Source of the DNA: Candidatus Dojkabacteria bacterium
Lineage (GTDB): Bacteria > Patescibacteriota > Dojkabacteria > J137
Assembly (NCBI GenBank): GCA_937944235.1
Contig: CALDYZ010000020.1
Span: 1-48,002 of the forward strand
Length of the DNA: 48,002 bases
Reading direction: 5' to 3'
Below are positions 10,220 to 48,002 of the stretch, piece by piece. Each line of letters opens with the position of its first letter. Position 1 is the first letter of the stretch. Made by a program: the position numbers and the translations under genes. The notes beneath the pieces were generated by a model. It did no database searches. It saw nothing but the letters and a program-made list of their open reading frames with translations, and was not told the DNA's origin.

Positions 10220-10260
10220 AATATTATATTTTATTTAATTAATAATTTACTTATAAAATT

Positions 10261-25434: not shown

Positions 25435-25458
25435 TCATATTTTAAGCGGTCACATGTT

Positions 25459-27357: not shown

Positions 27358-27382
27358 ACTTATTCGATTAGAAATTGTTGTT

Positions 27383-28477
27383 ATGAATCAAATTCATAGA
27401 GATAAGATAAAATTTATATCCTTTGTGCTAGTTTTCTTTTTATTATATCTGTTGAATGTAACCATGTTTTTGAGGTTTCTAGGAATACTGACTTTAAGTT
27501 ATGTAGCAGTACTTTTGATTTATCCATTATATGCTAGACTGTTAAAATCGCTAAAGTCTAAATCTTTAACTGCCATTGTAAGTTATTTTATATTCTTACT
27601 TTTTATATTGGTGCCTTTTGGTTTATTAGTTATAATTATTGTTAATGAAATTATAAACATTATAAACAATATTTCATTTACCGAATACATTAATAACGTT
27701 ACCGAATTACAAAATGCAATAAATAATTTAATATCGACAATTAATCAAGTTTTTATAAATTTGAACTTGGACTTCAAAATCTCTTACATAGATCTAAATA
27801 CATTTTTTAAAGATATCGATACTTCTAACTTTATTCAAAATCAACTAATACCTTTTTTTAGGAACTTAGCTACATTTAGTGTAGATTTTTTATTTAGTTT
27901 TTTTATTTTTAGTTTGTCAGTGATACTCATATTACCTGAGTGGCCAAACATACCTGTTTACTTTAGTAAAATATCTCCTTTGGATGATAAATATGATCTA
28001 ATGATTATTAGTAAGATAAATCTGGCAATAAGAAATATACTATTTGCAAGTTTTGGGGTATCTTTATTACAAGCAACCGCTGTTTTGATTCCTATGTTGT
28101 TCTTAAACGTAAATTCACCAATATTGCTATGGATTATAATGGTTTTAATGTCGATTGTACCAGTAGGGTCAGGCGTAGTTTGGTTTCCAGTAGGAACAAT
28201 TTACATCATTAATGGGCTTGTTTCTTTTAATTTTGGTTATGTCTTAACAGGTCTATTATTCATAGTATACTCTGCGATTATTATTAATTTAATAGAAGCT
28301 TATTTTAGACCTAAATTTATGGATAATGCTTTAGGAATTCATCCTCTGGTAGTGATATTGAGTGTCATAGGCGGAATTGGAGTATATGGTGCACTCGGTT
28401 TGATATATGGACCTGTATTGGTGGTTTTGCTAATAACTTTTGTAAATATATACAAAAAGAGTTTAGAAAATATATGA
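27383..28477 (+). CDS. AI-2E (PerM/UPF0118) family transporter-like membrane protein
   Basis: 364 aa, about 8 TM helices, with the size and helix spacing typical of the family. The assignment rests on overall pattern only. Confidence 0.6.
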   Translation: MNQIHRDKIKFISFVLVFFLLYLLNVTMFLRFLGILTLSYVAVLLIYPLYARLLKSLKSKSLTAIVSYFIFLLFILVPFGLLVIIIVNEIINIINNISFTEYINNVTELQNAINNLISTINQVFINLNLDFKISYIDLNTFFKDIDTSNFIQNQLIPFFRNLATFSVDFLFSFFIFSLSVILILPEWPNIPVYFSKISPLDDKYDLMIISKINLAIRNILFASFGVSLLQATAVLIPMLFLNVNSPILLWIIMVLMSIVPVGSGVVWFPVGTIYIINGLVSFNFGYVLTGLLFIVYSAIIINLIEAYFRPKFMDNALGIHPLVVILSVIGGIGVYGALGLIYGPVLVVLLITFVNIYKKSLENI

Positions 28478-34633: not shown

Positions 34634-35827
34634 ATGCTAAGTATGTCAAACAACAAAATAAATACTTTTCTATCTATAGATATAGGTACAGAAAATTTGA
34701 AAATAGCTTTATGTACGGTACATTTTAATACAGTAGAGATAATAGGTTTCAAAAAACTTCCACAGGTTAGAGGTTCGGTAAGGTCTTCTTTTATAATAGA
34801 TATAGCCTCAGTTATCGAAAAAATTGATTTAGGAGTAGGTTTGATAATTAGTGAAGTTAAAGATGAGTATGATATAAATTTACCCAACACCGCTGTTTTT
34901 GGTGTAGCTGGAGAATCTGTTTTGGGCAAAACAGTTCATATAGAATTTGTGCGAAAAAAAAATAATGTAATTTCTGAGTCAGAGTTTTTGTCTATTGTAA
35001 ATGCTGCAAAGGATGGTGTATTTGAATCAGTAAAGCCTAACTTAGCTGAAAATTCACTAATAGATGAACATCTACTTGCAGAAGTTACAACAGAGCTGAT
35101 AGGTATCAAATGTGATGGTCAATACGTAAAGGAAGCTGTTGGAGTTAGTGCAGGCAATATAGAATTAGTTTTTTATGTCGCTTACGCTCCACAAATATAT
35201 TTAGATAGTTTATCTAAAATAGCGAATAAATTTTCATTATCAGCGTTTAAAACTTTTGTAGAACCTTTTGCTATATCACAAACGTTAGATTTAGATGTAA
35301 ATTATGCTAATAATTGTGTTGTGGTGGATATAGGTGGAGGAACTACAGATGTAGCTGTGATGTCTAATAAAGAATTAGTTGGCACTAAAATATATGGAAT
35401 AGGAGGAAATACTTTTACGCAGTATATAGCTGATAAATTAAACATTAATTTTGATAAAGCTGAAGAATTAAAACTTCAGTATTCCAACCAAAAATTAACT
35501 CATACAGAAGAAGTAGAGTTATCGCGGATTATAGATAAGGCAGCATATGTTTGGGCCCGGTCATTAGAATTGGCTTTATTAAAACTGATAGATACGAAGG
35601 AATTGCCTTATAACTTTTATTTTTGTGGAGGATCATCTCTTTTACCCAATATTCAGCAAATAATGATTAGTTATCCTTGGCAACAAAAACTAAATTTTGT
35701 TAAATATCCCAAATTTAACTATTTGTTTCCAAACAAAATAAAGGATGTTGTGGACAAAACTAGAACAGTTAATTCATTGTCTGATGTTGCTGTGATGTCT
35801 TTAGCGAGTTATTTTGTAAAAAAATGA
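34634..35827 (+). CDS. Second actin-fold ATPase (FtsA/PilM-like paralog)
   Basis: LSIDIGTENLKIAL (phosphate 1), VVVDIGGGTTDVAVM (phosphate 2), GIGGNTFTQYIA, and FYFCGGSSLLPNI (adenosine). An SHS2-like insert sits between phosphate 1 and 2, as in FtsA. Confidence 0.75.
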   Translation: MLSMSNNKINTFLSIDIGTENLKIALCTVHFNTVEIIGFKKLPQVRGSVRSSFIIDIASVIEKIDLGVGLIISEVKDEYDINLPNTAVFGVAGESVLGKTVHIEFVRKKNNVISESEFLSIVNAAKDGVFESVKPNLAENSLIDEHLLAEVTTELIGIKCDGQYVKEAVGVSAGNIELVFYVAYAPQIYLDSLSKIANKFSLSAFKTFVEPFAISQTLDLDVNYANNCVVVDIGGGTTDVAVMSNKELVGTKIYGIGGNTFTQYIADKLNINFDKAEELKLQYSNQKLTHTEEVELSRIIDKAAYVWARSLELALLKLIDTKELPYNFYFCGGSSLLPNIQQIMISYPWQQKLNFVKYPKFNYLFPNKIKDVVDKTRTVNSLSDVAVMSLASYFVKK

Positions 35828-37650
35828 TAATACATTCATCTAAGTATTTTTTAGATTTAGATACAAATTTATTTAATGTTTATGACATTTTAGAAAATGA
35901 AGGAAAGGACCATATAATAATTGTTATACCTACTGATAGTACTTTGTTTGATGGTCAAATAAATTTTGATATAATCAGAACATTTTGCGATGACCTTAAG
36001 AAAGTCGTTGTGATAGTTACAGAAGATGAAAAAGGTTTAAAAATGATACAAAGAAGTGGTTTGGTTGGAGTTAAAAAGATAAGTCAGGTAACGGTAGATT
36101 TGTGGCAAGTAGCTGAACAGAGAGTTTATTTAGCACAGAGAAATAATGTATCAAATATTCAAGAAGTTGAAAATGTTTATCAAACAAATGATTTGTCATA
36201 TGAACATTCTAAGTTGAAGTATACTGATGAAAGTGAAACTGATAATGATAGTTATATGGTGAATTTTGATGAGAAGGATGTAGTTTTTTATGTAGGTAAG
36301 GATGTAAAGAAGATAGTGAGTAAATCTAAGAAAGAGGATATACAAAGAGTTGAAAATTTCGGATCTCTGATTGCAGGTAATGACTATAGCAAGTTTCTCT
36401 TTAAGAAGAATGATAGAAATAAAAATTATTTGTATTTTGTTTTGAGAATATTGTCAAGTTTGTTTTTTTTTAGAAAAAACTTGTTATTGTTTTCTGCAAT
36501 AACGATCTGTATACTTATTAGTGCATTAGTAATATTTAATAGGTTCTTAATAAGTGAGGTATTAATAACCACCGTTAAAGAAGAAATAGTTAAGGAATTT
36601 AAAGTAATATTGTCTGAAAGCTACAATGAAGATGATACGTATACTACCGATGGTGTAAAGTCATCATTAACTATAGAAGAGATAGAAGATGTGTCTATAT
36701 CAAAAACTTTTAACATATCAAAAAAAACAAAAACAGGTAATAAAGCAGTCGGTTTAATATCTTTGTATAATTTAACTGATCAAGATATAAACTTGCCAGT
36801 GGGTACAAAAGTAAAGTCTCTTATTCTAGGCAAGGAATACGTAGTAACCAAAGAAGTGGTTGTGCCTAAAGTATCCAGAAACTCCCTAGGGGAAAAAATC
36901 CCACAATCTGTAGAAGATGTAACAATACAAGCTTTGGAATATGGCGAATCTTATAACTTGTCTCTTTCTCAAGGGGATGATAATTTTATTATCTTGTTAG
37001 ACGGTTATGACGATGTTTCCAAAGCTTCAGGTCGTATATTCAGAGATATAAAAGGGGGAGAATCGTTTGAAGTATTTAGAGTCTTACAGAGTGATGTTGA
37101 TGATGTAATAGAAGATATAAAAAATGAACTCCGATTGATAACAAAAGATAAATTGTTAAGTAGAGTTTTAGCTACAGAAATTGCTTTTACAAAGAATATA
37201 AATTATATATTAACTGAAAAAAAAATCTTACCAGACATTGGGGAGGATTCTGCAGACGGATTGTTTACTATATCTATGAAAATGAAGGGAGAATTACCAA
37301 AAATATCAAAGTTTAAATTAGATGAGTTGGCTAAAATTTATTTTCAGAATGTTAATGAAAAACAGCTAGAAACTCAAAATCTAAAATCACAGATCTTAGA
37401 TATTGTTTATGATGAACAAAACAAAGTTTATCATTTGAATGTTGGTTTATCAGCCAATGTTATTAGTAGATTTTCTGAAGAATACATTTTTAACCTAATT
37501 AAGGGAAAGTTTGATGCGGAAGCAAAATACATTTTGTCGAATAATGAAAATATATCTTCTGTAAACATACTTTTTAAACCTGGCTTTGTACCTGATTTTA
37601 TGAAATATATACCAACAGATAAAGATAGAGTGCAAATACGCATAATTTAG
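35824..37650 (+). CDS. Large bitopic membrane protein (about 210-aa cytoplasmic N-domain, one TM, about 370-aa outside domain), unknown family
   Basis: 608-aa ORF whose start overlaps the upstream stop (ATGA). Single TM LLLFSAITICILISALVIFNRFLI. No motif I can name. Confidence 0.7.
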   Translation: MIIHSSKYFLDLDTNLFNVYDILENEGKDHIIIVIPTDSTLFDGQINFDIIRTFCDDLKKVVVIVTEDEKGLKMIQRSGLVGVKKISQVTVDLWQVAEQRVYLAQRNNVSNIQEVENVYQTNDLSYEHSKLKYTDESETDNDSYMVNFDEKDVVFYVGKDVKKIVSKSKKEDIQRVENFGSLIAGNDYSKFLFKKNDRNKNYLYFVLRILSSLFFFRKNLLLFSAITICILISALVIFNRFLISEVLITTVKEEIVKEFKVILSESYNEDDTYTTDGVKSSLTIEEIEDVSISKTFNISKKTKTGNKAVGLISLYNLTDQDINLPVGTKVKSLILGKEYVVTKEVVVPKVSRNSLGEKIPQSVEDVTIQALEYGESYNLSLSQGDDNFIILLDGYDDVSKASGRIFRDIKGGESFEVFRVLQSDVDDVIEDIKNELRLITKDKLLSRVLATEIAFTKNINYILTEKKILPDIGEDSADGLFTISMKMKGELPKISKFKLDELAKIYFQNVNEKQLETQNLKSQILDIVYDEQNKVYHLNVGLSANVISRFSEEYIFNLIKGKFDAEAKYILSNNENISSVNILFKPGFVPDFMKYIPTDKDRVQIRII

Positions 37651-37724: not shown

Positions 37725-37767
37725 AGTGACTATTTTGTAGACAATTTTATTTGTTAGGTTATTTTTT

Positions 37768-38079
37768 ATGTCGAGTGACAAAAACAAAATAACAATAACT
37801 CCTGTTGGAGAGTACATACTTGTGAAGCCTCATAAAGAGGAGGAAACTACAGCTTCAGGTTTGATTTTACAGACATCGGGTAAAGGGGAAAGGCCACAAA
37901 AAGGCGAGATAATTGCCCTAGGTAGTGGAAAGTTAAATGAGGATGGAGAAAGATTACCTTTCTCAGTGAAAGTTGGTCAAAATATTCTTTTTAAAAAGTA
38001 TTCTCCAGAAGAGATAGAGGTTGATGGAGAGATATTTTTGCTTATGAGAGAGCAAGATATTCTTGCAATAATCAACTAG
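37768..38079 (+). CDS. groES: Co-chaperonin GroES
   Basis: PVGEYILVKP...TASGLIL...GEIIALGSG...VGQNILFKKY is a typical Cpn10, upstream of groEL. Confidence 0.97.
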   Translation: MSSDKNKITITPVGEYILVKPHKEEETTASGLILQTSGKGERPQKGEIIALGSGKLNEDGERLPFSVKVGQNILFKKYSPEEIEVDGEIFLLMREQDILAIIN

Positions 38080-38107
38080 CTATTTTAAGTTATTTTATTT
38101 GTTATAG

Positions 38108-39745
<1,638 letters not shown>

Positions 39746-39780
39746 GGTTTTGATTATTGCGCGTTTCAAAAAACTCAAGA

Positions 39781-39814
39781 AGCGAACCAAACAAAAATTT
39801 GGTTCGCTTTTTTT
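39781..39814 (+). terminator. Rho-independent terminator of groESL
   Basis: Perfect 11-bp stem AGCGAACCAAA / TTTGGTTCGCT, 6-nt loop, followed by a run of T residues. Confidence 0.85.
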
Positions 39815-39887
39815 AGGCGAAGATATTGAGTTATTAATTTTTTTATGTTTATACTATTTTAATGTGTATTTATATATATTTTTTGTT

Positions 39888-40256
39888 ATGAAAAACTTAA
39901 TAAGTCTAATTCTGAGTTTGTTACTTGTTTTTCTTTCTTATAATATCAGCGTGTTTGCTAATGCTGGAGGATTTGTTCCAAGAATACCAAATCCTAGTAA
40001 ATTCAATACTGGTGAGGATATAATCAATGCACTAGCTGGTCTGATTAGACCTGCTTTCTTGATTGGTTTTGCTGCAATGTTGTTTTTTGGTGCGTGGACA
40101 TACCTTACAGCAGGTCCTGACGATGGTAAAATTAAGAATGCAAAAAATATAATTACTGCAGCCATTGGTGGTTTTATATTGGCGGTGCTGGCACCAACAA
40201 TCATGAATTTTATTGGCGGTTTACTTGGTGTACAAGGTGGTTTAACAATTTTGTAA
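39888..40256 (+). CDS. TrbC/VirB2-like (T4SS-pilin-type) small membrane protein, paralog 1
   Basis: Signal peptide MKNLISLILSLLLVFLSYNISVFANA, TM1 LIRPAFLIGFAAMLFFGAWTYL, loop TAGPDDGKIKNAKN, TM2 IITAAIGGFILAVLAPTIMNFIGG. The start at 39888 lies downstream of the groESL terminator. Confidence 0.75.
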   Translation: MKNLISLILSLLLVFLSYNISVFANAGGFVPRIPNPSKFNTGEDIINALAGLIRPAFLIGFAAMLFFGAWTYLTAGPDDGKIKNAKNIITAAIGGFILAVLAPTIMNFIGGLLGVQGGLTIL

Positions 40257-40257
40257 A

Positions 40258-40866
40258 ATGAGAGTTTTACTTTTTATTATTTTTTTTGCTGCTATTATAT
40301 TTTTGTACAATTCATATTTGTCAGCTAATGAAGGTAGTGATCCGTGTGCTATTGTTAAAAGCCAGTGTCCCAAACCTTGTAAAGGTATTCAGAATGAGCT
40401 TAATTGTTACATACCTAATTTTGATTGTTTATCTAAAAAACCATTAGAACCGAAGTTATCGTGTTGTATATCTAAATGTAAGGATAGTGCAAAATCGGGT
40501 TTTAATGAAAATGAACTGAAGGAATTTTATCGGACTTTTAATTTTTTTGGCACGAAGGTCAACGTAAATACTAGTAGTTTGGTGGGATGGGTTACTCTGT
40601 CAGTGCAAGCTTTCCTAGCTGTTGTTTCTGTTGTAGCTTTATTAAGAGGGATTAAGGCAGGAGCATTTGATTTACCAAGAGGAGATAAACTTGAAGAAGT
40701 AAAAAAAGATGTGAGGAATACTTTATTAGGTTTTTTCTTAGCATGGGGTGCTATTTTTATTATCCAAGTCGTACTTTCTGTGCTAGGTATACCTGGTTTG
40801 AACGAGTTGGTAATCATTGGAGATCAACCTGGTTCTAAAACTGGCGGTACTATAGTTATTAAATAG
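40258..40866 (+). CDS. Two-TM hairpin (pilin-like) paralog 2 with an 8-Cys N-terminal ectodomain
   Basis: Signal peptide, 8 Cys in about 50 aa (DPC..SQC..KPC..LNC..FDC..SCC..SKC), TM1 LVGWVTLSVQAFLAVVSVVALL, basic loop, TM2 TLLGFFLAWGAIFIIQVVLSVLGI. It begins 1 nt after paralog 1. Confidence 0.7.
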   Translation: MRVLLFIIFFAAIIFLYNSYLSANEGSDPCAIVKSQCPKPCKGIQNELNCYIPNFDCLSKKPLEPKLSCCISKCKDSAKSGFNENELKEFYRTFNFFGTKVNVNTSSLVGWVTLSVQAFLAVVSVVALLRGIKAGAFDLPRGDKLEEVKKDVRNTLLGFFLAWGAIFIIQVVLSVLGIPGLNELVIIGDQPGSKTGGTIVIK

Positions 40867-40888
40867 TTAATAATAATAATATAACAAT

Positions 40889-41377
40889 ATGATGTATCGA
40901 ATTTTAGTACAAATATTTCAAAATAGTGGATCTGATAAAATTTTACCTGAGCAAATATCTGATAAAATCAAGCCTATTGAAATCCCAATTTTCCCAATTG
41001 TGGTCGAAGGTTTTGATCCGAAATATTCCACCATTTTATCATGGTTATCTTTTGCTGGAGTAATCTTGACAATAATTGTTTTAGCAATTTTCATAGTGAG
41101 AATCGTTTTTTTAAGTTATAAAATGATAGTTCAAGGGTCAGAAAAGGAAGAAGTTGTTGGTGATGTATTTAAAAAATTTAGGTTGAATTTTGTAGGTTTA
41201 ATTATTACTTTTTTGACGCCAATTATATTATCTTTAATAGGTGGATTCCTAGGTATAGGTAACATTTTTCGGTGGCCAAAGATGTTTAGTTCTTGTTCTG
41301 GATCTGAATATGAATTCTATTTTGAAGCTTACTTAAGAGAAGGTACAGATGCCGACAATTTATGTTTTACTAATTAA
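40889..41377 (+). CDS. Two-TM hairpin (pilin-like) paralog 3
   Basis: TM1 ILSWLSFAGVILTIIVLAIFIVRIVFL, loop KMIVQGSEKEEVVGDVFKKFR, TM2 LNFVGLIITFLTPIILSLIGGFLGI. C-terminal tail with 2 Cys. Confidence 0.65.
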   Translation: MMYRILVQIFQNSGSDKILPEQISDKIKPIEIPIFPIVVEGFDPKYSTILSWLSFAGVILTIIVLAIFIVRIVFLSYKMIVQGSEKEEVVGDVFKKFRLNFVGLIITFLTPIILSLIGGFLGIGNIFRWPKMFSSCSGSEYEFYFEAYLREGTDADNLCFTN

Positions 41378-41394
41378 GTATTTATTTATGTTAT

Positions 41395-41775
41395 ATGAAT
41401 GAAAAACGTAACTATAATGCTTGTGATATTCTTGGCTGTCCAGAATCATTAATAGATGGCGGACAGATAGTATCTTCTGGTTCAAGTCTGGTCGAGTATG
41501 CAGTATCTTTGGTTTTCCCCGGGCTAATAGTTATTGGAGTCTTTGTGATAGTAAAATCTGCTTATAGGTTTATTAAAAGTGAAGGGGTAACTCAGGAAAT
41601 AGAATCTTCTCAAAAAGCAATAAAGAGAGTTTTTATTGGGATAATAATGCTGTTTTTGGGCTTTGTGGGTTATATATTGATACTAAGTTTTTTTAACGCA
41701 TCTAAAATAGATCTAAGTTCAGATAGTATTGAAAAACCTGGTGTTATAAAAAATATAGATGTCCCATTTATATAA
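41395..41775 (+). CDS. Two-TM hairpin (pilin-like) paralog 4
   Basis: N-terminal CDILGC pair, TM1 VSLVFPGLIVIGVFVIVKSAY, loop KSEGVTQEIESSQKAIKR, TM2 VFIGIIMLFLGFVGYILILSFF. Confidence 0.65.
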   Translation: MNEKRNYNACDILGCPESLIDGGQIVSSGSSLVEYAVSLVFPGLIVIGVFVIVKSAYRFIKSEGVTQEIESSQKAIKRVFIGIIMLFLGFVGYILILSFFNASKIDLSSDSIEKPGVIKNIDVPFI

Positions 41776-41805
41776 AAAAAAGATTTATTATGTATATGAA
41801 TAATT

Positions 41806-42609
41806 ATGAATATTACTAAATTCTTAATATCGTGCTTTGTCTGCTTCTTTTTAGCTATCAATAACAACATGCTTGTTGATACAATTTTTGCTCAAGGATT
41901 TTCTGGTAATGATCCTTCAAGCTACCAGTGTTTTGATTCCGAAGGAAAGAAATTGGATGTAAGGCCGACTCTAAAGGATGGTGTGATGACATGTGAATAC
42001 GAAGGCAAAACCTATCAAGCAGTACTAAAACCTGTAAGTTTACAGCAATTAGAAATATGGTTTATAAAAATAGTCTACTTTATATGGGCATTTGTTGCAA
42101 CGTTCTCTTTTGTTTTGTTACTTGGAGTAGCTTACCAATATATGATTTCTAGAAATGCTGGATCAGCTTTGGCACAGGCTCGTCAGAGAATTTTTCAATA
42201 TATTCTTGGTTTTGCGTTGGTGTTTTTAGCAGTACCAATACTTAGTACAATGTTTAGATTACTGGGAGTAGATGACTCGATAGAATGTTACTCTGGACTT
42301 AGTGGTGAAAATAATGTCGGTATTGGTTTTCAGTTTATATTTGCTGATTTGTGCACTGATCCAAAAGGCAAGTATCAGGATATACTAGGACATTTAGGCA
42401 GAGTAATCAATAGAGAAAGATCTAAAAGCCCTACTAATCCTATTGCTGTGCTAACAGCACTAAGAAATGAAATTGACAAAATAAATGGAACTGCATGTGA
42501 TGAAAGATCTTTTAGGGAAAATGTTCAGTGTATTGGAAATATCAAAGTAAGTATAGCATGTGTTAATGCTAGGTATAATGTAACAGTAGATTTTCCTTGT
42601 AATAAATAA
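41806..42609 (+). CDS. Two-TM hairpin (pilin-like) paralog 5 with Cys-containing N- and C-terminal ectodomains
   Basis: Signal peptide, 2-Cys N-module, TM1 IVYFIWAFVATFSFVLLLGVAYQYMI, loop SRNAGSALAQARQR, TM2 IFQYILGFALVFLAVPILSTMF, and a C-terminal ~110 aa with 6 Cys. Confidence 0.7.
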   Translation: MNITKFLISCFVCFFLAINNNMLVDTIFAQGFSGNDPSSYQCFDSEGKKLDVRPTLKDGVMTCEYEGKTYQAVLKPVSLQQLEIWFIKIVYFIWAFVATFSFVLLLGVAYQYMISRNAGSALAQARQRIFQYILGFALVFLAVPILSTMFRLLGVDDSIECYSGLSGENNVGIGFQFIFADLCTDPKGKYQDILGHLGRVINRERSKSPTNPIAVLTALRNEIDKINGTACDERSFRENVQCIGNIKVSIACVNARYNVTVDFPCNK

Positions 42610-42627
42610 AATTAAAAAGTAAGCAAA

Positions 42628-44013
42628 ATGTTTTACCTGAATTGTAAATCTTTATTTTTTAGAGTTTTCAGAAAAGGACATTTAATGTATGTTTTAGATA
42701 AAAAAACTGCTTTTGATCTAAAAAGTAGTTTACAATTAAATAATCTAAGATTCGTTTCGACTGAACTTAGTTTGGAGCAAATTTTATCTGGGAAACATGA
42801 AGTCACTATAGAATTTTTTAGATTTGCTGATGATTTAAAATTATTAACACTATCCGACGTTTCATCGAAAGATTCTAATCATGTAGACAGTAAAATAATC
42901 ATAGACAGAAAGAATTTAATTAATAATACTAGATCACTTCTCAGTGAATTGGAAGTGAATCAAGATTCATTAGATAAATATCTGCGTAAAATTCAGCTGA
43001 GATTTTTTGAAAGTCAGATCAAAATTTACGATGATTCGATAAATAACAGCAAAAAAGACCATGAAACTAATCTAGAAAATTTAATATCTCAAAGAACTGC
43101 TTTTGAAAAATTAGTAAAAGATTTGAGTTATTTTCAAAATAAACTAAATTCAGTTGACCAACAAATTCAAAAACTACATGGACTGTTCCAAAATTTAGAT
43201 TTAAAAAAATATGTAGAAGATTTAAAAGTGAAAAGATTGATGCTTGTAAACCAGAAATTGAGAAATCCAACCATTGGTAATATACATAGTTCTTCTGTGG
43301 ATGAAAAGTTATCAGAGTTTGATAGCTTTGTAGGTGAAGGTATATTGATTCTTTCATTTGTACAAATTTTAGTGGCAACTTTATTTTTTGTAAATTTAGG
43401 TTTTGTGAAGGAAAATATAATATTTTCTACTTTTTACTTAATCTTTAATTTCTTTTCTTTTTTAATATTCAACAAATTGAGATTTAAACAAAAATTTGAA
43501 AGATTTTTAGACTCTTCCGAATCTCAAAAATACGAATTCGAGAAATTAGTAGGAACATTATCAAAAGAAACTGTAGAAAAAGTAAAACAAATATCTTACT
43601 TAGAAGCTTTGAATTATGAAAAAAAAATTATAGAAAAATCAATGAATTTTTTGAGTGGTGGTAAAAGCGTAGATGAATTAAAAATTACAATAGAAGAATT
43701 AGATAAAAAAATTAATGAATCGGTCAATTTAGATGACCGTTGGATAATTGATGAGGATCAATATTATTACTGCAAAAGAGAAATAAATCTACTTAAATTA
43801 GAAGTCGATGATTATGATGCTGAGATTGAAGTAGAAAATTTAAATAAATTTGCAAGTGTGGGTGATTTTTTATCAAAATTACATCTTATGAAAGATGAGT
43901 ATATGTTGCCATTATTTATACAAGTTGATAGTGGTTTTGATTACAATAAAGATTTTGATCCACAAAGATATGATATCAAAGATAAACAAATTATATTTAT
44001 AAGTTTTGCATAG
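42628..44013 (+). CDS. Coiled-coil membrane protein (two central TM helices), unknown family
   Basis: 461-aa ORF. Heptad-rich segments flank the TM pair ILILSFVQILVATLFFVNLGF / IIFSTFYLIFNFFSFLIF. An alternative start is the Met at 42685. Confidence 0.65.
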   Translation: MFYLNCKSLFFRVFRKGHLMYVLDKKTAFDLKSSLQLNNLRFVSTELSLEQILSGKHEVTIEFFRFADDLKLLTLSDVSSKDSNHVDSKIIIDRKNLINNTRSLLSELEVNQDSLDKYLRKIQLRFFESQIKIYDDSINNSKKDHETNLENLISQRTAFEKLVKDLSYFQNKLNSVDQQIQKLHGLFQNLDLKKYVEDLKVKRLMLVNQKLRNPTIGNIHSSSVDEKLSEFDSFVGEGILILSFVQILVATLFFVNLGFVKENIIFSTFYLIFNFFSFLIFNKLRFKQKFERFLDSSESQKYEFEKLVGTLSKETVEKVKQISYLEALNYEKKIIEKSMNFLSGGKSVDELKITIEELDKKINESVNLDDRWIIDEDQYYYCKREINLLKLEVDDYDAEIEVENLNKFASVGDFLSKLHLMKDEYMLPLFIQVDSGFDYNKDFDPQRYDIKDKQIIFISFA

Positions 44014-44101
44014 AAATTAGTGCTAGAAACTGGAAATATGAATTACTTGAGAAAGTTTTATAGAAATATTAAAATTTGATTTAGTGTTAAATTTTAACTT
44101 A

Positions 44102-45916
44102 ATGTTATCAAAATTGTTTATTTTCCCATTTTGTTTTCTTGTTTGGTCGTTTTTAGCTCCTCAATTAGTATTTGGGCAAAGTTCTATAGACTTTCAAAAT
44201 CTAATAGCTAGTAAAGAGTACGAGCTAAATGAGTTAAATAAAAAAATCAAAGATATAGAGGAAAAATCAAAGTTGATTTCTTTAGATTTATTAAAAACAA
44301 GTTCTGAATTAGAAAAATTAGACAGAGAGTTAGTTTACTATGAAAATGAAATTGAGAAGATTAATTTATTTAGACAAAGATCATTATTGGAAATTGAGAT
44401 ACATAAATCTAAAAAAAAAGAATTAAGCTTGATACAAAATGCTGCATCAAAGATCACATACAAGAATTGGAGGTCAAGTAATATATTGCAAAAAACTTCA
44501 ATATTCTTCGTAACAGAGCTATATGATCCGAAAAGATATGAAAAATACAATGATACGTATTTTAGTAATGTTGATTTAAGTATAACTGATGTTTCTAGGA
44601 ATATATTGTTTTTGGATGAACAGATATCAAGAACTGCTGAAGGGATCAATGATTTCAACAAAATCAAAAAGGATTTAGTAGCAAAAAAAGCAGAGATACA
44701 ACAAAGTTTGTATTTGTTGAGTAATGAGAGGAACAGCTACAGAAAAGAGTATTTGTCAATTAGTGACAATATAAATAAGTTGAAGTCTGATATAACCTTT
44801 TTAAGTAATGAGCAAAAAAAAGCAATTGAGAGAGAAATTATGATGTTAGCTAATGCTAATCCAAGTAATAATCAAGTTTCTTTACAGCCCGGTGAATTTT
44901 ACTTTAAAGGTCAGGGAAGAGATTTATATCAAGGACATGGAGTAGGTATGAGTCAATTTGGTGCCCATGGAGCTGCTTTAAACGGCTATAGTTATGACCA
45001 AATTCTGAAATTTTATTATCAAGGAGTTGAAATTTCTGACTTGCATCATACACAAAACATAATGGTTGATGGTTATGGGTATATGGATATTGAAGACTAT
45101 GTATCAGGACAGGGAGAGGTCCCAGCTTATGCGTGCGGAACACAAGATCAAATTGATGAATGGCGGATATACGCAGATGTTCAAGGTTGGGAACACAATG
45201 ATCCTAGGAGAAAAAAGTATGTAATTGATGATACTTCTACTATATGGGATTGCTGGCCAGAAGAAGCAATAAAAGCTCAAGTTGTTGCTTTTAGAACCTA
45301 TGCTTTAAATTATGTATCCAGGAAAGGTTCCATATGTACCTCGGCTGCTTGTCAGGTGTATAAAAACAATAAAAATTCAGCATGGGCTGCAGAGGAGACC
45401 AAAGGTAAGGTTATTACTTACAGTGGTGAATTGATAGAGGCCCTTTACTCTTCGGATAACAATCAAGGTTATGGTACTGCAAACAACGATACCGTGTTTA
45501 CCAATTTTCATGGTGATGGAACACCATACCCGTATTTAAGGTCTGTAAATGACAGTACTTTTGCAACAAAAACGTTTTATTCCAATTGGAAATATAATAC
45601 TAGAAAATATACTTTTGAAAGCATTTTTCAGATGCTTAGTTACATAGCCTATGCACCCAATAGTGATATAGATAGATATGATAGTTTTGTCCGAAATAAT
45701 ACAAAGTCCTTAATAAATGGATCGATAAGTATTAATTCTATATCTTTAGAATTAGATCCATCTAAGAGGGTTAAGAAAGTTTTTATTCAATTTGATAATG
45801 GGAGTATAAAAAGCATCAGCGGTTATTGGTTTAAATATATGTGGAATGTTTGGTCGTTTTATACAGGTAGTTATGACTATATTTATAGTCAGACGTTTGC
45901 CTTAGCATATGAATAA
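44102..45916 (+). CDS. Secreted coiled-coil + SpoIID/LytB-domain protein
   Basis: Signal peptide MLSKLFIFPFCFLVWSFLAPQLVFGQ, about 230 aa of coiled coil, then SpoIID motifs GHGVGMSQFGA, AIKAQVVAFRTYALNY, CTSAACQVYK, ETKGKVITYSGELIEALYSS. The track start (44084) is a GTG; the ATG is at 44102. Confidence 0.85.
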   Translation: MLSKLFIFPFCFLVWSFLAPQLVFGQSSIDFQNLIASKEYELNELNKKIKDIEEKSKLISLDLLKTSSELEKLDRELVYYENEIEKINLFRQRSLLEIEIHKSKKKELSLIQNAASKITYKNWRSSNILQKTSIFFVTELYDPKRYEKYNDTYFSNVDLSITDVSRNILFLDEQISRTAEGINDFNKIKKDLVAKKAEIQQSLYLLSNERNSYRKEYLSISDNINKLKSDITFLSNEQKKAIEREIMMLANANPSNNQVSLQPGEFYFKGQGRDLYQGHGVGMSQFGAHGAALNGYSYDQILKFYYQGVEISDLHHTQNIMVDGYGYMDIEDYVSGQGEVPAYACGTQDQIDEWRIYADVQGWEHNDPRRKKYVIDDTSTIWDCWPEEAIKAQVVAFRTYALNYVSRKGSICTSAACQVYKNNKNSAWAAEETKGKVITYSGELIEALYSSDNNQGYGTANNDTVFTNFHGDGTPYPYLRSVNDSTFATKTFYSNWKYNTRKYTFESIFQMLSYIAYAPNSDIDRYDSFVRNNTKSLINGSISINSISLELDPSKRVKKVFIQFDNGSIKSISGYWFKYMWNVWSFYTGSYDYIYSQTFALAYE

Positions 45917-46526
45917 ATCTTATTTAAAAAGAAAAATATTGGAGGATATTCTGAAGAATCAGGAATATCGCAGGTGTGCAAATGAATTAAAAAGAAAAAT
46001 TTATTTTAATGGACAGAATCCAGACGAAGTTATTTTTGCAAAGTTAAGGAGTTCATATATTAGAAACATTTCTTGGCTAATTGAAATATTATTTCTTTTT
46101 GTTTTGCCCATTTTGTTACCTGAATTAATAAATTTTATGAACAGTCTAAATGTAATTATTATTGAAAAAACTTTTTTAAGTTATACAGTTATTTTCGTCG
46201 CATATTACAGTATTTTATTAACTTTTTTTGTTTACAAGTTTTTAGACTGGTATTTAGATATTTACTTAGTGACCAGTCAAAGACTTATAGAAATAGTATT
46301 TAGGCCTTATGGTGACATTTACACAAAAGAAATATGGTTAGGAGATATAGATACTATAAAAACTAGTAGCTCTGGATTATTAGGACTTATTTTGAATTAT
46401 GGGGACATTAAAATTATAACTCGTACTGAAAGTGGAGGAGCAGAATTAAAATATATATCTAATTTTAACAAAGTTAAGAATTTGATATCTGATTTAAGTA
46501 AAATTAGTAAAAAGTATGAAAATTAG
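45909..46526 (+). CDS. Bacterial PH-domain (bPH_2/YdbT-like) membrane protein
   Basis: Two TM helices, then LDWYLDIYLVTSQRLIEIVFRPYGDIYTKEIWLGDIDTIKTSSSGLLGLILNYGDIKIIT. It overlaps the SpoIID-gene stop by 8 nt. Confidence 0.75.
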   Translation: MNKSYLKRKILEDILKNQEYRRCANELKRKIYFNGQNPDEVIFAKLRSSYIRNISWLIEILFLFVLPILLPELINFMNSLNVIIIEKTFLSYTVIFVAYYSILLTFFVYKFLDWYLDIYLVTSQRLIEIVFRPYGDIYTKEIWLGDIDTIKTSSSGLLGLILNYGDIKIITRTESGGAELKYISNFNKVKNLISDLSKISKKYEN

Positions 46527-46547
46527 AATTATTTAAACAAAGAAAGA

Positions 46548-46757
46548 ATGTTTGAAGATAATTTATACAATTTCATAAAGATTTGTCTTTTATTAGTTAG
46601 CGTAGTGCATGTTGTTTTTGCTACTTTGTTGTATTTACAAGTTAATAGATATACTAGGATATTGGTCTTACATGACAATAAATTCATAATTATTGCAAAG
46701 AAAATATATATGTTGATAGTATTATTAAGTAGCTTAATAATTATGTTTGTAACATGA
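46548..46757 (+). CDS. Small hypothetical two-TM protein
   Basis: 69-aa ORF with hydrophobic segments ICLLLVSVVHVVFATLLYL and IYMLIVLLSSLIIMFV. Its stop overlaps the next start (ATGA). Confidence 0.45.
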   Translation: MFEDNLYNFIKICLLLVSVVHVVFATLLYLQVNRYTRILVLHDNKFIIIAKKIYMLIVLLSSLIIMFVT

Positions 46758-48002
46758 GTAAGTTTGTTTCGGAGTATTTAGTTAAAAATAATTTGGAAGG
46801 TGTTATTTCTTCTATATATGGTAGTCAACTTAACTTACCAGAACGTGAAGTGAATTTGTTAATTTTATTAAGTACTTCTGCTAATAAACAAAACAGAGAA
46901 TTATCGATTATTAATAAATTCATATCTGACGATTTACTTGCTTTTATTTCGGCCGAGATTTCGGCAGGTCGAGAAAATATGGATGTTCTAGAAAAAGTTC
47001 AATTAAGATTAGAATATGTAGTGAACAATGTTTTGGAAAAAGATGTAGAGTTGTCTGAGACAGGAATAGATATAAATATGATATTTGTTATTTTAGAAGA
47101 AGAATACTTTTATATATACACTTTTGGAGAAGTTTTCGCTTATTTGAAGAGACTAGATAAGTTTGTTTCAATATCTGATTTGTTAAATCAGGCATCCAAG
47201 CGGAATCACATTAAATTGGGTAGTATGCACCTGCAGGATTCAGATAGATTAGTTTTGGGAATACTTGCTGACAAAAATAAGGAAGATTTGGATCTTATTT
47301 TACATGAAATTCTTGATAAACTTGATTTGCAAATTTTATCAAAATTTTCAAGTTTCGTATCTACCTGTTTGGCTAATTCTGAAGATTCGTGGCCGGTTGA
47401 TTCTGTTAGTAAGGTGAATTTGCAAGATTCAGACAATACTTTAAAAATTAATGAAACGAATCCTAAAGCTGTTAAGACTGAAAATGGTTATGCTGCAAAT
47501 ACAAGTGTAGAATATGAAAAAGAAAGCGAATCCTATCATTTTGAATATCGAACAAATTCCTATTTTTCTAAGTTAACTCCTAATTTGTTTAACTTTTTTT
47601 ATCAGTTACTGGAGAGTGTATTTAAAAATAAAAAGAGATCTCAATCTGGGGATAATTCTGAAAATAGTACTTCTAGTAAACAAAATACATTTTTACAGAA
47701 GACGATCAGAGATTTTGTGTTAAAAATCCAGAATTTTATTAGATCAGAGGGCTTTGTTTTTTTGAGATCAAGATTTATATTATTTTTAAACCAGATTTTA
47801 TCATACATTAAAAAACTTTTATTCGTACCATCTGACATAAATCCAAGAAACAGAGTTTATTATCACAAGGTAGTTACAAGAAATAGACTCATTTTAGTTG
47901 TTGTTTTTGTTTTACTTGTAGTTTATGTGTATAACTCTTATAAAAATGCGGAAATACAAAGACAGGAAATCTTATATAAGGAAAGGGTAACTACTGATTT
48001 TA
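46754..48002 (+). CDS. Partial CDS (3' end outside the window): degenerate PP2C-like N-domain, linker, TM helix
   Basis: My own translation from the ATG at 46754 is open for 416 codons to the window edge; this ORF is not in the supplied track. GIDINMIFVILEEEYFYIYTFGEVFAYL and MHLQDSDRLVLG resemble PP2C strands, with the GDSRAY Asp replaced by Glu. TM LILVVVFVLLVVYVY lies near the end. Confidence 0.6.
   Translation, partial: MSKFVSEYLVKNNLEGVISSIYGSQLNLPEREVNLLILLSTSANKQNRELSIINKFISDDLLAFISAEISAGRENMDVLEKVQLRLEYVVNNVLEKDVELSETGIDINMIFVILEEEYFYIYTFGEVFAYLKRLDKFVSISDLLNQASKRNHIKLGSMHLQDSDRLVLGILADKNKEDLDLILHEILDKLDLQILSKFSSFVSTCLANSEDSWPVDSVSKVNLQDSDNTLKINETNPKAVKTENGYAANTSVEYEKESESYHFEYRTNSYFSKLTPNLFNFFYQLLESVFKNKKRSQSGDNSENSTSSKQNTFLQKTIRDFVLKIQNFIRSEGFVFLRSRFILFLNQILSYIKKLLFVPSDINPRNRVYYHKVVTRNRLILVVVFVLLVVYVYNSYKNAEIQRQEILYKERVTTDF

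What the first reader, a model, noticed from the sequence alone, without database searches (positions are those of the whole stretch)
39888..48002. Operon of at least 10 genes joining the pilin-like array to peptidoglycan-remodelling and signalling-like membrane proteins
All genes from just after the groESL terminator to the window edge are co-directional. Gaps are 70 nt or less, and two junctions overlap start with stop (45909/45916; ATGA at 46754). The order is: five pilin-like proteins, a coiled-coil 2-TM protein (461 aa), coiled-coil-SpoIID, a bPH membrane protein, a 69-aa 2-TM protein, then a degenerate PP2C-like TM protein. A cell-wall-opening enzyme next to pilin-like subunits recalls the VirB1 or lytic-transglycosylase role in trans-envelope machines, but here the enzyme is of SpoIID type. 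As far as I know this combination is not a described system.
Basis: inference. Interest (0 to 1): 0.7.

Follow-up and report, generated by a model that had tools for sequence, protein, structure and literature searches.

The report
Pilin array with SpoIID wall-opening module
In this ultra-small (CPR/Patescibacteria) bacterium, five conjugation-type pilin genes lie next to a conserved four-gene membrane module built around an unusual cell-wall-cutting enzyme; this pairing recurs across several CPR classes and may supply the missing wall-opening function of their essential but poorly understood type IV secretion-like pili.

Summary
From the groEL terminator to the contig end, ten co-directional genes have gaps of -8 to 70 nt.

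The locus is a composite of three parts:
- Five VirB2/TrbC-like T4SS pilin paralogues. Such arrays are already described in Patescibacteria.
- A decayed, ATPase-dead SbcE/YhaN-like SMC protein. It is probably a bystander relic.
- A four-gene module: a coiled-coil, circularly permuted SpoIID lytic transglycosylase; a 2-TM bPH protein; DUF5657; and a receptor-like pseudo-PP2C-TM-NHL-propeller protein.

The module was found as 82 distinct copies across Dojkabacteria, Microgenomatia and WWE3. Pilin arrays lie within six genes of SpoIID in 39 of about 51 informative loci, against 1 of 35 control loci. They are co-directional in Dojkabacteria and divergent elsewhere, often with a VirB6-like gene.

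Caveats:
- smpB is linked just as tightly.
- The bPH-DUF5657-pseudo-PP2C trio also occurs without SpoIID or pilins.
- No VirB4 lies nearby.

The best reading is a regulated wall-opening module serving the VirB2-type pilus, standing in for VirB1 (confidence 0.45). The main rival is a general growth or division hydrolase module. I found no paper describing the association. I rate it a new variant of a known kind.

The parts
39780..39816 (+). Intrinsic terminator after groEL (13-bp stem, then a T-run). It marks the 5' boundary of the cluster.
39826..39855 (+). Promoter-like site (TTGAGT-18-TATACT), 33 nt upstream of pil1. Consensus match only.
   Evidence: Such sites are not enriched over shuffled sequence.
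39888..40256 (+). pil1: VirB2/TrbC-like T4SS pilin (122 aa; signal peptide plus two TM helices).
   Evidence: PF18895 at 1.6e-8, 35 bits against a cutoff of 26.6. TM scan.
40258..40866 (+). pil2: pilin paralogue (202 aa) with a Cys-rich N-terminal ectodomain.
   Evidence: hhalign against the pil1-type profile: 95%. TM scan.
40889..41377 (+). pil3: pilin paralogue (162 aa).
   Evidence: Weak PF18895 match, 0.034. hhalign 96.7%.
41395..41775 (+). pil4: pilin paralogue (126 aa).
   Evidence: Weak PF18895 match, 0.009. hhalign 97.2%.
41806..42609 (+). pil5: pilin paralogue (267 aa) with a Cys-rich C-terminal extension.
   Evidence: hhalign 97.8% against the pil1-type profile. Orthologues found.
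42628..44013 (+). cc461: decayed SbcE/YhaN-like SMC protein. The Walker A head and signature motif are lost. The central TM hairpin, the coiled coil and remnants of Walker B and the H-loop are kept.
   Evidence: Alignment. hhalign: a profile of cc461, L001 and L002 together gives 97% against the full-length SbcC-like profile, but cc461 with L001 alone gives only 60%. Intact SbcD plus SbcC-like genes at this position in relatives.
44047..44075 (+). Promoter-like site (TTGAGA-17-TAAAAT, 10 of 12 matches) in the gap before SpoIID. A possible internal promoter.
   Evidence: Consensus match only.
44084..45916 (+). Membrane-anchored SpoIID/LytB lytic transglycosylase with an EnvC-like coiled coil. 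The catalytic domain is circularly permuted and the catalytic-Glu motif WPEEAIKAQ is intact.
45909..46526 (+). 2-TM protein with a cytoplasmic bacterial PH (bPH_2-type) domain. Its start overlaps the SpoIID stop by 8 nt.
   Evidence: 9 of 12 family members hit PF03703
46548..46757 (+). 69-aa 2-TM protein of the DUF5657 family.
   Evidence: 17 bits, below the cutoff. Orthologue at 25.9 bits against a cutoff of 25. bPH and s69 overlap in 52 of 70 loci.
46754..48002 (+). Receptor-like bitopic protein, cut by the contig end: a cytoplasmic pseudo-PP2C domain (aa 1-210), a linker, and one TM at about aa 373-391. Orthologues continue into an extracellular helix and a PknD-like NHL beta-propeller (about 800 aa in total).

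Best explanation
The cluster is a composite envelope locus of a Dojkabacteria (CPR) chromosome.

Pilins. Five divergent VirB2/TrbC-like pilin paralogues are exported and, with machinery encoded elsewhere, form or decorate a type IV secretion-type pilus or conduit. In other lineages a VirB6-like channel protein is encoded in the same operon. A T4CP-like ATPase lies three genes beyond the contig end in close relatives.

Module. The adjacent four-gene module is a regulated wall-cutting device.
- The SpoIID-type lytic transglycosylase is held on the outer face of the membrane by its N-terminal helix.
- Its long EnvC/PcsB-like coiled coil keeps it under the control of a membrane complex made of the bPH protein, DUF5657 and the pseudo-PP2C-TM-NHL-propeller receptor.
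- When triggered, it opens the peptidoglycan locally so that the pilus or conduit can cross the wall. This is the job done by VirB1, PrgK or CwlT in classical T4SSs, here by non-orthologous replacement.

Bystander. The SbcE-like cc461 is a decaying neighbour.

Shown: gene identities, folds, intact catalytic motif, conserved neighbourhood. Inferred: complex formation, regulation through the coiled coil, and service to the pilus.
For: Pilin homology.

SpoIID enzyme:
- The domain scores above curated cutoffs and the catalytic E-A-I-K-A-Q motif is conserved.
- The coiled coil's best sequence match in the PDB is EnvC, profile E 1.8e-9. RipC- and PcsB-type hydrolases are also listed, but only at 0.004-0.005, below generic coiled coils.
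- The best fold match is EnvC in the FtsEX complex.

Module conservation:
- 82 distinct modules were found.
- SpoIID is immediately upstream of bPH in 62, and within four genes in 8 more.
- bPH and DUF5657 overlap in 52 of 70 loci, suggesting translational coupling.

Pilin adjacency:
- Arrays lie within six genes of SpoIID in 39 of about 51 informative CPR loci, against 1 of 35 control CPR loci. Fisher p is about 1e-8; that test also counted 17 non-CPR SpoIID loci, so it is conservative.
- This holds in record-named Dojkabacteria, Daviesbacteria, Shapirobacteria and Gottesmanbacteria.

Links to other T4SS genes:
- VirB6/TrbL-like polytopic genes sit in the pilin operons. In one locus the VirB6-like gene is 12 nt from SpoIID.
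- Divergent operons have start codons only 40-67 nt apart, which implies a shared control region.
- A T4CP-like ATPase is adjacent in both Dojkabacteria and Levybacteria, in different orders.

Literature:
- Most CPR pilin arrays lack a VirB1 (PMC12102498).
- The Saccharibacteria T4SS carries an essential, unrelated lysozyme-type hydrolase (PMC10633639).
Against: - smpB, a housekeeping gene, is linked as tightly: 67 of 82 modules, median gap 12.5 nt. Conserved adjacency in CPR does not prove shared function.
- The bPH-DUF5657-pseudoPP2C trio occurs without SpoIID and without pilins, next to lepA, in Paceibacteria-type and WWE3 loci.
- Levybacteria and one Dojkabacteria subclade lack adjacent pilins.
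- A single inversion of the pilin operon explains the orientation change, so orientation is not independent evidence.
- No VirB4, VirB3 or VirB6 lies in the window or within 10 kb in the closest relative.
- EnvC/PcsB/RipA-like coiled coils are typical of division hydrolases.
- There are no expression or localisation data.
Confidence: 0.45

Rival explanations
1. The SpoIID-bPH-DUF5657-pseudoPP2C module is a general cell-wall growth or division device. It would be a CPR counterpart of FtsEX-EnvC/PcsB/RipC or of PASTA-kinase/PP2C wall sensing. In this reading it splits or remodels peptidoglycan during the cell cycle, and the pilin array is only an inherited neighbour.
For: - The coiled coil matches EnvC. 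PcsB and RipA/RipC are listed much more weakly.
- The trio exists without SpoIID or pilins among housekeeping genes such as lepA and smpB.
- The receptor architecture resembles PknD and PstP wall or division signalling proteins.
- Some lineages lack adjacent pilins.
- From my own knowledge, not checked here: SpoIID homologues act at the septum in Chlamydiae.
Against: - Pilin arrays are strongly enriched next to SpoIID.
- VirB6-like genes abut SpoIID.
- The divergent intergenic regions are very short.
- Neither the division genes ftsA and ftsZ (8921-11403) nor the Amidase_3 gene (15980-17185) is near the module.
Confidence: 0.35
2. There is no functional relationship. The ten genes are a block of slowly rearranging CPR synteny, made of unrelated envelope and housekeeping genes that happen to be co-directional.
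For: - groESL, clpB, sbcCD-like genes and smpB are interleaved in relatives.
- A promoter-like site lies before SpoIID.
- The + strand run extends well upstream of the cluster.
Against: - Flanks differ between classes while the pilin-SpoIID-bPH-DUF5657-pseudoPP2C block persists.
- The frequency is 39 of about 51 loci against 1 of 35 controls.
- Start-stop overlaps occur within the module.
Confidence: 0.12
3. The pilin-like genes are not pilins. They would be small membrane holin-like or anchor proteins that work with the SpoIID hydrolase as a lysis or autolysis cassette.
For: Small 2-TM proteins sit next to a wall hydrolase.
Against: - All five are homologous to PF18895/VirB2-type pilins.
- pil1, pil2 and pil5 begin with an N-terminal hydrophobic, signal-peptide-like segment, and pil2 to pil5 carry Cys-containing extensions outside the 2-TM pilin core.
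- VirB6-like genes sit in the same operons.
- There are no phage genes, and the context is chromosomal and housekeeping.
Confidence: 0.03

Closest known systems
Patescibacteria T4SS with VirB2-like pilin arrays (Southlakia epibionticum SEML1_0006-0019, Wang 2023 PMC10633639; survey by Quinonero-Coronel 2025 PMC12102498)
   Same: - Tandem array of divergent PF18895/VirB2-like pilins on a monoderm CPR chromosome.
- A peptidoglycan hydrolase is encoded alongside.
- No relaxase was seen.
   Different: - No VirB4, PrgI/VirB3 or VirB6 lies in or near this locus.
- The hydrolase is SpoIID-type rather than lysozyme or glucosaminidase.
- The bPH, DUF5657 and pseudo-PP2C-NHL partners are absent from the S. 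epibionticum genome tables.
VirB1 / PrgK / CwlT / TraG(pIP501) wall hydrolases of T4SSs
   Same: - A glycan-strand-cleaving enzyme encoded with pilin and channel genes.
- The presumed role is local wall opening.
   Different: - The fold is unrelated: SpoIID/LytB rather than SLT/lysozyme or CHAP.
- It carries a long regulatory-type coiled coil and three dedicated membrane partners.
SpoIID of the sporulation DMP engulfment machine (PDB 4RWR, 5I1T)
   Same: - SpoIID/LytB domain with a conserved catalytic Glu motif.
- Membrane-anchored.
   Different: - The domain is circularly permuted: GHGxGxSQ precedes EALKAQ in 25 of 25 CPR proteins, against 2 of 37 non-CPR proteins.
- A coiled coil of about 200 aa is added.
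- No SpoIIP or SpoIIM turned up among the window ORFs scanned, and CPR bacteria are not known to sporulate.
FtsEX-EnvC / PcsB / RipC / CwlO coiled-coil wall-hydrolase systems
   Same: - Secreted or anchored coiled-coil hairpin followed by a wall-acting domain.
- EnvC is the top sequence and fold match for the coiled coil.
   Different: - No FtsEX lies in the locus.
- The neighbouring membrane proteins (bPH, DUF5657, pseudo-PP2C) are unrelated to FtsX and FtsE.
- The catalytic domain is a lytic transglycosylase.
PknD (NHL-propeller sensor kinase) and PstP / SpoIIE (membrane PP2C phosphatases)
   Same: - Bitopic receptor layout.
- The NHL six-blade propeller outside matches PknD (1RWI, 1.2e-12).
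- The PP2C fold inside matches SpoIIE (5MQH, 1.6e-8).
   Different: - The metal-binding Asp motifs are lost, so it is probably a pseudo-phosphatase.
- I do not know of any described protein with this combination of domains.
SbcE(YhaN)/SbcF(YhaO) of Bacillus subtilis (PMC2811018)
   Same: - Relatives carry an SbcD-like nuclease plus an SMC-like ATPase with a hydrophobic central domain at this position.
   Different: - The window copy (cc461) has lost the Walker A head, the signature motif and its nuclease partner.

Membership tests
Patescibacteria VirB2-like pilin array (PMC12102498) | Two or more tandem genes homologous to VirB2/TrbC/PF18895 pilins | tested here: met
   Five genes. pil1 exceeds the Pfam cutoff. 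pil2 to pil5 give 95-98% hhalign probability, against less than 1% for controls.
Type IV secretion system (any MPF class) | VirB4 ATPase encoded in or near the locus (the hallmark of a T4SS) | tested here: not met
   None in the window. None within 10 kb in the closest relative by precomputed Pfam. The nearby 805-855 aa ATPase is T4CP-like, not VirB4: its best matches are TrwB, DotL and plasmid T4CP annotations. No dedicated VirB4 profile was available.
Type IV secretion system (any MPF class) | VirB6/TrbL-like polytopic channel protein | tested here: not met
   No hit in the window at E<=10. It is present in the pilin operons of Microgenomatia-type relatives: Pfam TrbL at 9.8e-6, and a jackhmmer family of 16 hits with up to 11 predicted TM segments.
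VirB1/PrgK/CwlT T4SS wall hydrolases | SLT/lysozyme-like and/or CHAP/NlpC-P60 catalytic domain | tested here: not met
   Only SpoIID/LytB models match. The case is analogy, not membership.
SpoIID/LytB lytic transglycosylases | Domain HMM above the curated cutoff, and a catalytic Glu in the E-A-[LI]-K-A-Q motif | tested here: met
   PF08486 48.2 bits against 23. TIGR02669 142.6 bits against 83.3. E393/E394, K397, A398 and Q399 are invariant in 9 orthologues, and at least 90% conserved in 54.
SpoIID/LytB lytic transglycosylases | Canonical linear order of domain segments | tested here: not met
   The C-terminal GHGVGMSQ segment precedes the catalytic segment. The HMM coordinates are reversed relative to 4RWR and 5I1T. 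Motif order is reversed in 25 of 25 CPR proteins and in 2 of 37 non-CPR proteins.
FtsEX-regulated coiled-coil hydrolases (EnvC/PcsB/RipC/CwlO) | N-terminal coiled-coil hairpin homologous to EnvC-type | tested here: inconclusive
   Profile match to EnvC chains at 1.8e-9 and 3.2e-8, but generic coiled coils also hit at 1e-4. The Foldseek top hit is 8tzl_E with probability 0.99 but E 0.03.
FtsEX-regulated coiled-coil hydrolases (EnvC/PcsB/RipC/CwlO) | FtsE/FtsX partner | not testable with these tools
   The ten cluster genes and the larger upstream ORFs that were scanned give no FtsE/FtsX-family match; several ORFs were not scanned. The rest of the genome is not available, because the contig is the window.
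PP2C (PPM) phosphatases | PP2C fold | tested here: met
   AlphaFold2 pLDDT is about 96 for aa 1-210. All top 50 Foldseek hits are PP2C; the best is SpoIIE 5MQH at E 1.6e-8. Ten of the 12 profile hits in the PDB are PP2C.
PP2C (PPM) phosphatases | Metal-binding Asp residues (DGxGG, GDS, DG, DN motifs) | tested here: not met
   By my reading of the family consensus, FAVxR stands where canonical PP2Cs have DGxGG, GES stands for GDS, and no DG or DN motif is conserved. Only G104, G125 and D164 are invariant. This points to a pseudo-enzyme.
SbcC/SbcE (YhaN) SMC-like ATPases | Walker A head, signature motif, Walker B, and a nuclease partner (SbcD/SbcF) | tested here: not met
   cc461 lacks Walker A and the signature motif, and no SbcD gene is adjacent. 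Only the TM hairpin, the coiled coil and degenerate remnants of Walker B and the H-loop align. Intact pairs occur in relatives.
Bacterial PH domain (bPH_2, PF03703) | HMM match to the PH domain after two TM helices | tested here: inconclusive
   The window protein has no hit at E<=0.1. Nine of 12 aligned family members hit bPH_2, best 3.7e-5. There is no sequence match in the PDB.
DUF5657 (PF18901) | HMM match above the gathering score | tested here: inconclusive
   The window protein scores 17.2 bits against a cutoff of 25. The positional counterpart in L002 scores 25.9 bits. The family profile matches the window protein at 4.8e-21.

The most novel reading that the evidence does not exclude
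The VirB2-like pilin array, the VirB6-like channel, the T4CP-like ATPase and the SpoIID/bPH/DUF5657/pseudo-PP2C-NHL module together form a previously undescribed, VirB4-independent trans-envelope machine in Dojkabacteria and Microgenomatia. In this reading the NHL-propeller receptor senses contact with a host cell or a wall cue. It then licenses the coiled-coil SpoIID enzyme to open the wall, and a pilus or conduit assembles for DNA or protein exchange. The system would resemble the archaeal Ced DNA-import system, and the SbcE/SbcF-type nuclease of relatives would process the DNA.
Probability: 0.15. Interest if true: 0.85.

Novelty: new variant of a known kind. Interest (0 to 1): 0.6.

Why it matters
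T4SS-like pili are among the few known essential host-interaction machines of Patescibacteria. Their parts list outside Saccharibacteria is largely blank. The published survey found no VirB1-type wall hydrolase for most pilin arrays and concluded that one may not be needed.

What the finding adds:
- A conserved, permuted SpoIID lytic transglycosylase next to these arrays in Dojkabacteria and Microgenomatia is a concrete candidate for the missing wall-opening function.
- It comes with three dedicated membrane partners, including a receptor-like pseudo-phosphatase. These could explain how wall opening is triggered.
- It assigns a genomic context to DUF5657 and to a family of bPH proteins.
- It reveals a permuted SpoIID subfamily.
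- It identifies VirB6-like genes in Microgenomatia, where they were reported as scarce.

If the link instead turns out to be to growth or division, the module would still be a new type of regulated wall hydrolase system in bacteria with minimal divisomes.

Tried and rejected
Searches that led nowhere:
- Exact-sequence lookup of the window's bPH protein found nothing on record.
- A word-indexed homology search with the truncated 'last' protein found nothing. A full HMMER scan later gave 44 representative clusters.
- phmmer of the downstream ATPase against the PDB gave nothing. A profile was needed.
- Foldseek on the whole SpoIID model returned only coiled-coil matches with E>0.01. The catalytic domain was not recovered, probably because of the permutation and the dominance of the coiled coil.
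- The bPH profile had no match in the PDB.
- The VirB6 profile had no hit in the window.
- The S. epibionticum supplementary tables contain no SpoIID, DUF5657 or PP2C entry, so there are no essentiality data for this module.

Readings considered and rejected:
- The downstream ATPase as VirB4. All the better matches are coupling-protein (T4CP) families.
- 'last' as VirB6. It has a single TM.
- A mobile element or prophage. The context is housekeeping and the GC content is an even 25-37%.
- A hydrolase swap in Paceibacteria-type loci. The 593-600 aa gene upstream of bPH there begins with a translational-GTPase motif (IIAHIDHGKTTL) and is LepA-like by inspection.
- The Levybacteria 395-406 aa gene upstream of SpoIID as an N-extended pilin. 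It has no predicted TM segment and no pilin-profile hit.
- A holin-endolysin cassette (see rival explanations).
- Orientation change as independent evidence of re-association. One inversion of the pilin operon would explain it.

Full report
**1. Observation**

The region 39888-48002 carries ten + strand genes. The junctions are 1, 22, 17, 30, 18, 70, -8, 21 and -4 nt. An intrinsic terminator after groEL (39780-39816) marks the 5' edge. The last gene runs off the end.

The window is the entire public contig: P0001, the SpoIID gene call, has a longest contig of 48002. The sequence is about 30% GC. It carries ftsA, ftsZ, rpoD, RNase Y, parB, ileS, yidC, L25 and groESL, so the locus is chromosomal.

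The best relatives are Candidatus Dojkabacteria/WS6 MAGs. Co-directionality alone is unremarkable, because the + strand run begins near 30464.

**2. What each gene is**

*Pilins.*
- pil1 is a PF18895 T4SS pilin (1.6e-8).
- Profiles for pil2 to pil5 match the pil1-type profile with 95-98% hhalign probability. The bPH and DUF5657 controls give less than 1%.
- All five have the pilin-type pair of TM helices. pil2 to pil5 also carry extensions containing cysteines.
- These are VirB2/TrbC-type pilins, not type IV pilus pilins.

*cc461.* Its positional counterparts in many relatives are an SbcD/Mre11-type nuclease plus a 693-750 aa SMC-like ATPase (AAA_23, AAA_27/YhaN, SMC_N, SbcC_Walker_B) with a central hydrophobic segment, which the alignment shows as a two-helix hairpin. 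The alignment shows three things about the window protein and its nearest relatives:
- They have lost the Walker A head and the signature motif.
- They keep the TM hairpin and the 'EYLxxRRELDxLK' segment.
- They keep remnants of Walker B ('PLFIQVD') and the H-loop ('QIIFIS').

hhalign support is uneven. A profile of cc461, L001 and L002 together matches the full-length SbcC-like profile at 97%, but cc461 with L001 alone gives only 60%. The architecture matches B. subtilis SbcE(YhaN)/SbcF, an SMC-like pair with a hydrophobic central domain that acts in double-strand-break repair and competence (PMC2811018). I read cc461 as a decaying bystander.

*SpoIID protein.*
- It exceeds curated cutoffs: PF08486 48 bits, TIGR02669 143 bits.
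- The catalytic motif WPEEAIKAQ is conserved.
- The domain is circularly permuted. The GHGVGMSQ segment is C-terminal in solved SpoIIDs, but here it precedes the catalytic segment. The order is reversed in 25 of 25 CPR proteins and in 2 of 37 non-CPR homologues.
- The AlphaFold2 model (pLDDT 83) shows an N-terminal helix, a coiled-coil hairpin at residues 34-235, and a confident catalytic domain.
- The coiled coil's best sequence match in the PDB is EnvC (1.8e-9). PcsB- and RipC-type hydrolases are also listed, at 0.004-0.005. The Foldseek top hit is EnvC in the FtsEX complex, with RipA and PcsB further down the list. These matches are only moderately specific.

*bPH and s69.*
- The bPH protein has two TM helices and a PH domain. 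Nine of 12 family members hit bPH_2, but the window copy does not.
- s69 belongs to DUF5657 at family level.

*'last'.*
- Residues 1-210 fold as PP2C (pLDDT about 96). All 50 top Foldseek hits are PP2C, led by SpoIIE at 1.6e-8.
- The metal-binding Asp motifs are not conserved, so it is probably a pseudo-phosphatase.
- One TM follows.
- In full-length orthologues an extracellular helix leads to an NHL six-blade propeller. Its best natural match is the PknD sensor domain (1.2e-12).

**3. What lies beyond the contig end**

The closest relative is L251, with SpoIID 50% identical. Its gene order matches the window from the AAA protein, the PilM-like protein and groESL onward. It then continues with the 801-aa receptor, SmpB, a 197-aa protein, an 805-aa ATPase, an integrase and FtsH. 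The same continuation is seen in L001 to L008.

The ATPase is coupling-protein-like (T4CP), not VirB4:
- NCBIfam matches are of the TraD, VirD4 and MobC type.
- The best PDB profile hits are TrwB and DotL.
- Plasmid tblastn hits are annotated as T4SS DNA-binding or TraM-recognition proteins.

It is near-universal in CPR. Elsewhere it usually sits among housekeeping genes: a XerC-like recombinase, RNR and DnaX.

**4. Neighbourhood conservation**

*SpoIID anchor.* This finds only Dojkabacteria. Beyond them the hits drop to generic SpoIID/LytB.

*bPH anchor.* This reaches much further.
- 82 distinct bPH-receptor modules were found.
- The deposited record names include Dojkabacteria, Daviesbacteria, Shapirobacteria, Gottesmanbacteria, Woesebacteria, WWE3 and others. 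Levybacteria copies came from the ATPase-anchored scan.
- Many TPA records are evidently mislabelled as Gammaproteobacteria or Saccharibacteria.
- SpoIID is immediately upstream of bPH in 62, and within four genes in 8 more.
- bPH and DUF5657 overlap in 52 of 70 loci.

*Pilin adjacency.*
- VirB2-like arrays lie within six genes upstream of SpoIID in 39 of about 51 CPR loci that have at least 3 kb of upstream sequence.
- In 17 they are co-directional (Dojkabacteria-type loci). In 22 they are divergent (Microgenomatia-type loci).
- Among ATPase-anchored CPR loci without the module, the figure is 1 of 35. Among non-CPR SpoIID loci it is 0 of 45.
- Fisher p is about 1e-8. That test used 39 of 68, because it also counted 17 non-CPR SpoIID loci, so it is conservative.

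*Structure of the divergent loci.*
- The pilin operon starts with a 370-600 aa N-extended pilin. The examples examined have start codons 40-67 nt from SpoIID.
- It ends with a polytopic VirB6/TrbL-like protein with up to 11 predicted TM segments.
- In two co-directional loci the VirB6-like gene abuts SpoIID, with gaps of 12 and 50 nt.
- In Levybacteria the T4CP-like ATPase lies within two genes upstream of SpoIID instead.

**5. Caveats**

- smpB follows the receptor gene in 67 of 82 modules, with a median gap of 12.5 nt. Tight, conserved adjacency in CPR can therefore include a functionally unrelated gene.
- The bPH-DUF5657-receptor trio occurs without SpoIID or pilins in WWE3, Paceibacteria-type and Saccharimonadales-type loci. 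In the two Paceibacteria-type loci it follows a LepA-like GTPase gene.
- One Dojkabacteria subclade and the Levybacteria lack adjacent pilins.
- The orientation change can be explained by a single inversion.
- No VirB4, VirB3 or VirB6 lies within reach of the window's locus.
- A promoter-like site at 44047-44075 suggests the SpoIID sub-operon can be transcribed on its own.

**6. Mechanism**

*Best reading (confidence 0.45).* The module is a membrane-controlled wall-opening device.
- It consists of an anchored lytic transglycosylase restrained through its EnvC-like coiled coil.
- It is governed by a complex of bPH, DUF5657 and the receptor-like pseudo-PP2C-NHL protein.
- It serves the assembly of the VirB2-type pilus or conduit, replacing VirB1, PrgK or CwlT.

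This fits three published points. T4SS loci usually carry a wall hydrolase. Most CPR pilin arrays lack VirB1 (PMC12102498). The Saccharibacteria T4SS carries an essential, unrelated lysozyme-type enzyme (PMC10633639).

*Main rival (0.35).* A general growth or division hydrolase system, with the pilin array as an inherited neighbour.

*Other rivals.* Pure synteny (0.12) and a holin-like reading (0.03) are less likely.

**7. Comparison with the literature, and novelty**

- VirB2-like arrays and a Patescibacteria T4SS are described (PMC12102498, PMC10633639; review PMC12857230).
- No paper in the library combines SpoIID with Patescibacteria or Candidate Phyla Radiation, and none mentions DUF5657.
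- The S. epibionticum tables contain no SpoIID, DUF5657 or PP2C entry.

The finding is therefore a new variant of a known kind: a CPR pilin or T4SS-like locus with an undescribed, conserved SpoIID-centred accessory module. Two side results are a permuted SpoIID subfamily and VirB6-like genes in Microgenomatia.

Noticed in passing
window 44084-45916; same in L001-L013 and L172-L250: The SpoIID/LytB catalytic domain is circularly permuted. The GHGxGxSQ segment is C-terminal in solved SpoIIDs, but here it precedes the catalytic EALKAQ segment. This holds in 25 of 25 CPR proteins and in only 2 of 37 non-CPR homologues.
   Followed up: partly
window 42628-44013; L006 4008-7281, L012, L013, L174, L176 and others: Relatives carry an SbcD-like nuclease plus an SMC-like ATPase with a TM hairpin at the coiled-coil apex (SbcE/YhaN-like). 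In the window's subclade the nuclease is gone, and the ATPase has decayed to a headless 2-TM coiled-coil protein that is still an intact ORF in at least four genomes.
   Followed up: partly
L001-L008, L172-L250 (downstream of the receptor gene); beyond 48002 in the window's genome: smpB follows the pseudo-PP2C receptor gene in 67 of 82 modules, with a median gap of 12.5 nt, across several CPR classes. This is unexplained tight linkage of a trans-translation gene to an envelope module.
   Followed up: partly
L001 7368-9809, L251 16070-18487, L092-L171: An 800-855 aa T4CP-like ATPase, with one N-terminal hydrophobic segment in the copy checked (L001), appears to be near-universal in CPR: more than 590 species-level hits at about 37-42% identity. 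In many loci a small gene of roughly 150-190 aa lies directly upstream; the eight Dojkabacteria-type copies checked have no predicted TM. It often lies near a XerC/D-like recombinase, which hints at a chromosomal DNA-translocase role rather than conjugation.
   Followed up: partly
window 34634-37650: A second FtsA/PilM-like actin-fold ATPase (397 aa) overlaps the start of a 608-aa single-TM protein with no family match. The pair is conserved just upstream of groESL in L008 and L251. The canonical ftsA-ftsZ pair is elsewhere (8921-11403).
   Followed up: no
L212 3138-4256, L219 7044-8198, L249 5731-7530, L005 4296-5411: The first gene of many pilin operons encodes a 360-600 aa protein. It has a signal peptide, a large ectodomain and a C-terminal VirB2-like 2-TM pilin module. 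It may be a tip or adhesin pilin. No such gene is in the window.
   Followed up: no
L005 7659-9233 (also L200, L210): A 498-524 aa ORF on the opposite strand, with no family match, interrupts the pilin array between pil4 and pil5 in some Dojkabacteria.
   Followed up: no
window 22465-28477: A co-directional trio: a 989-aa Acyl_transf_3 membrane protein, a 632-aa Big_5 plus Peptidase_C39_2 protein, and an AI-2E family transporter. This may be another envelope or export unit.
   Followed up: no
record titles of L096, L103, L184, L198, L212, L219 and others: Many TPA metagenome bins are titled 'uncultured Gammaproteobacteria', 'Pseudomonadales' or 'Candidatus Saccharibacteria'. Yet they carry gene blocks that otherwise occur in records named Dojkabacteria or Microgenomates-group phyla. 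The deposited taxonomy appears unreliable.
   Followed up: no
window 37743-46753 (25 nt upstream of each of the 12 gene starts from groES to 'last'): None of the twelve start codons is preceded by a recognisable Shine-Dalgarno sequence. The upstream 25-mers are AT-rich.
   Followed up: no
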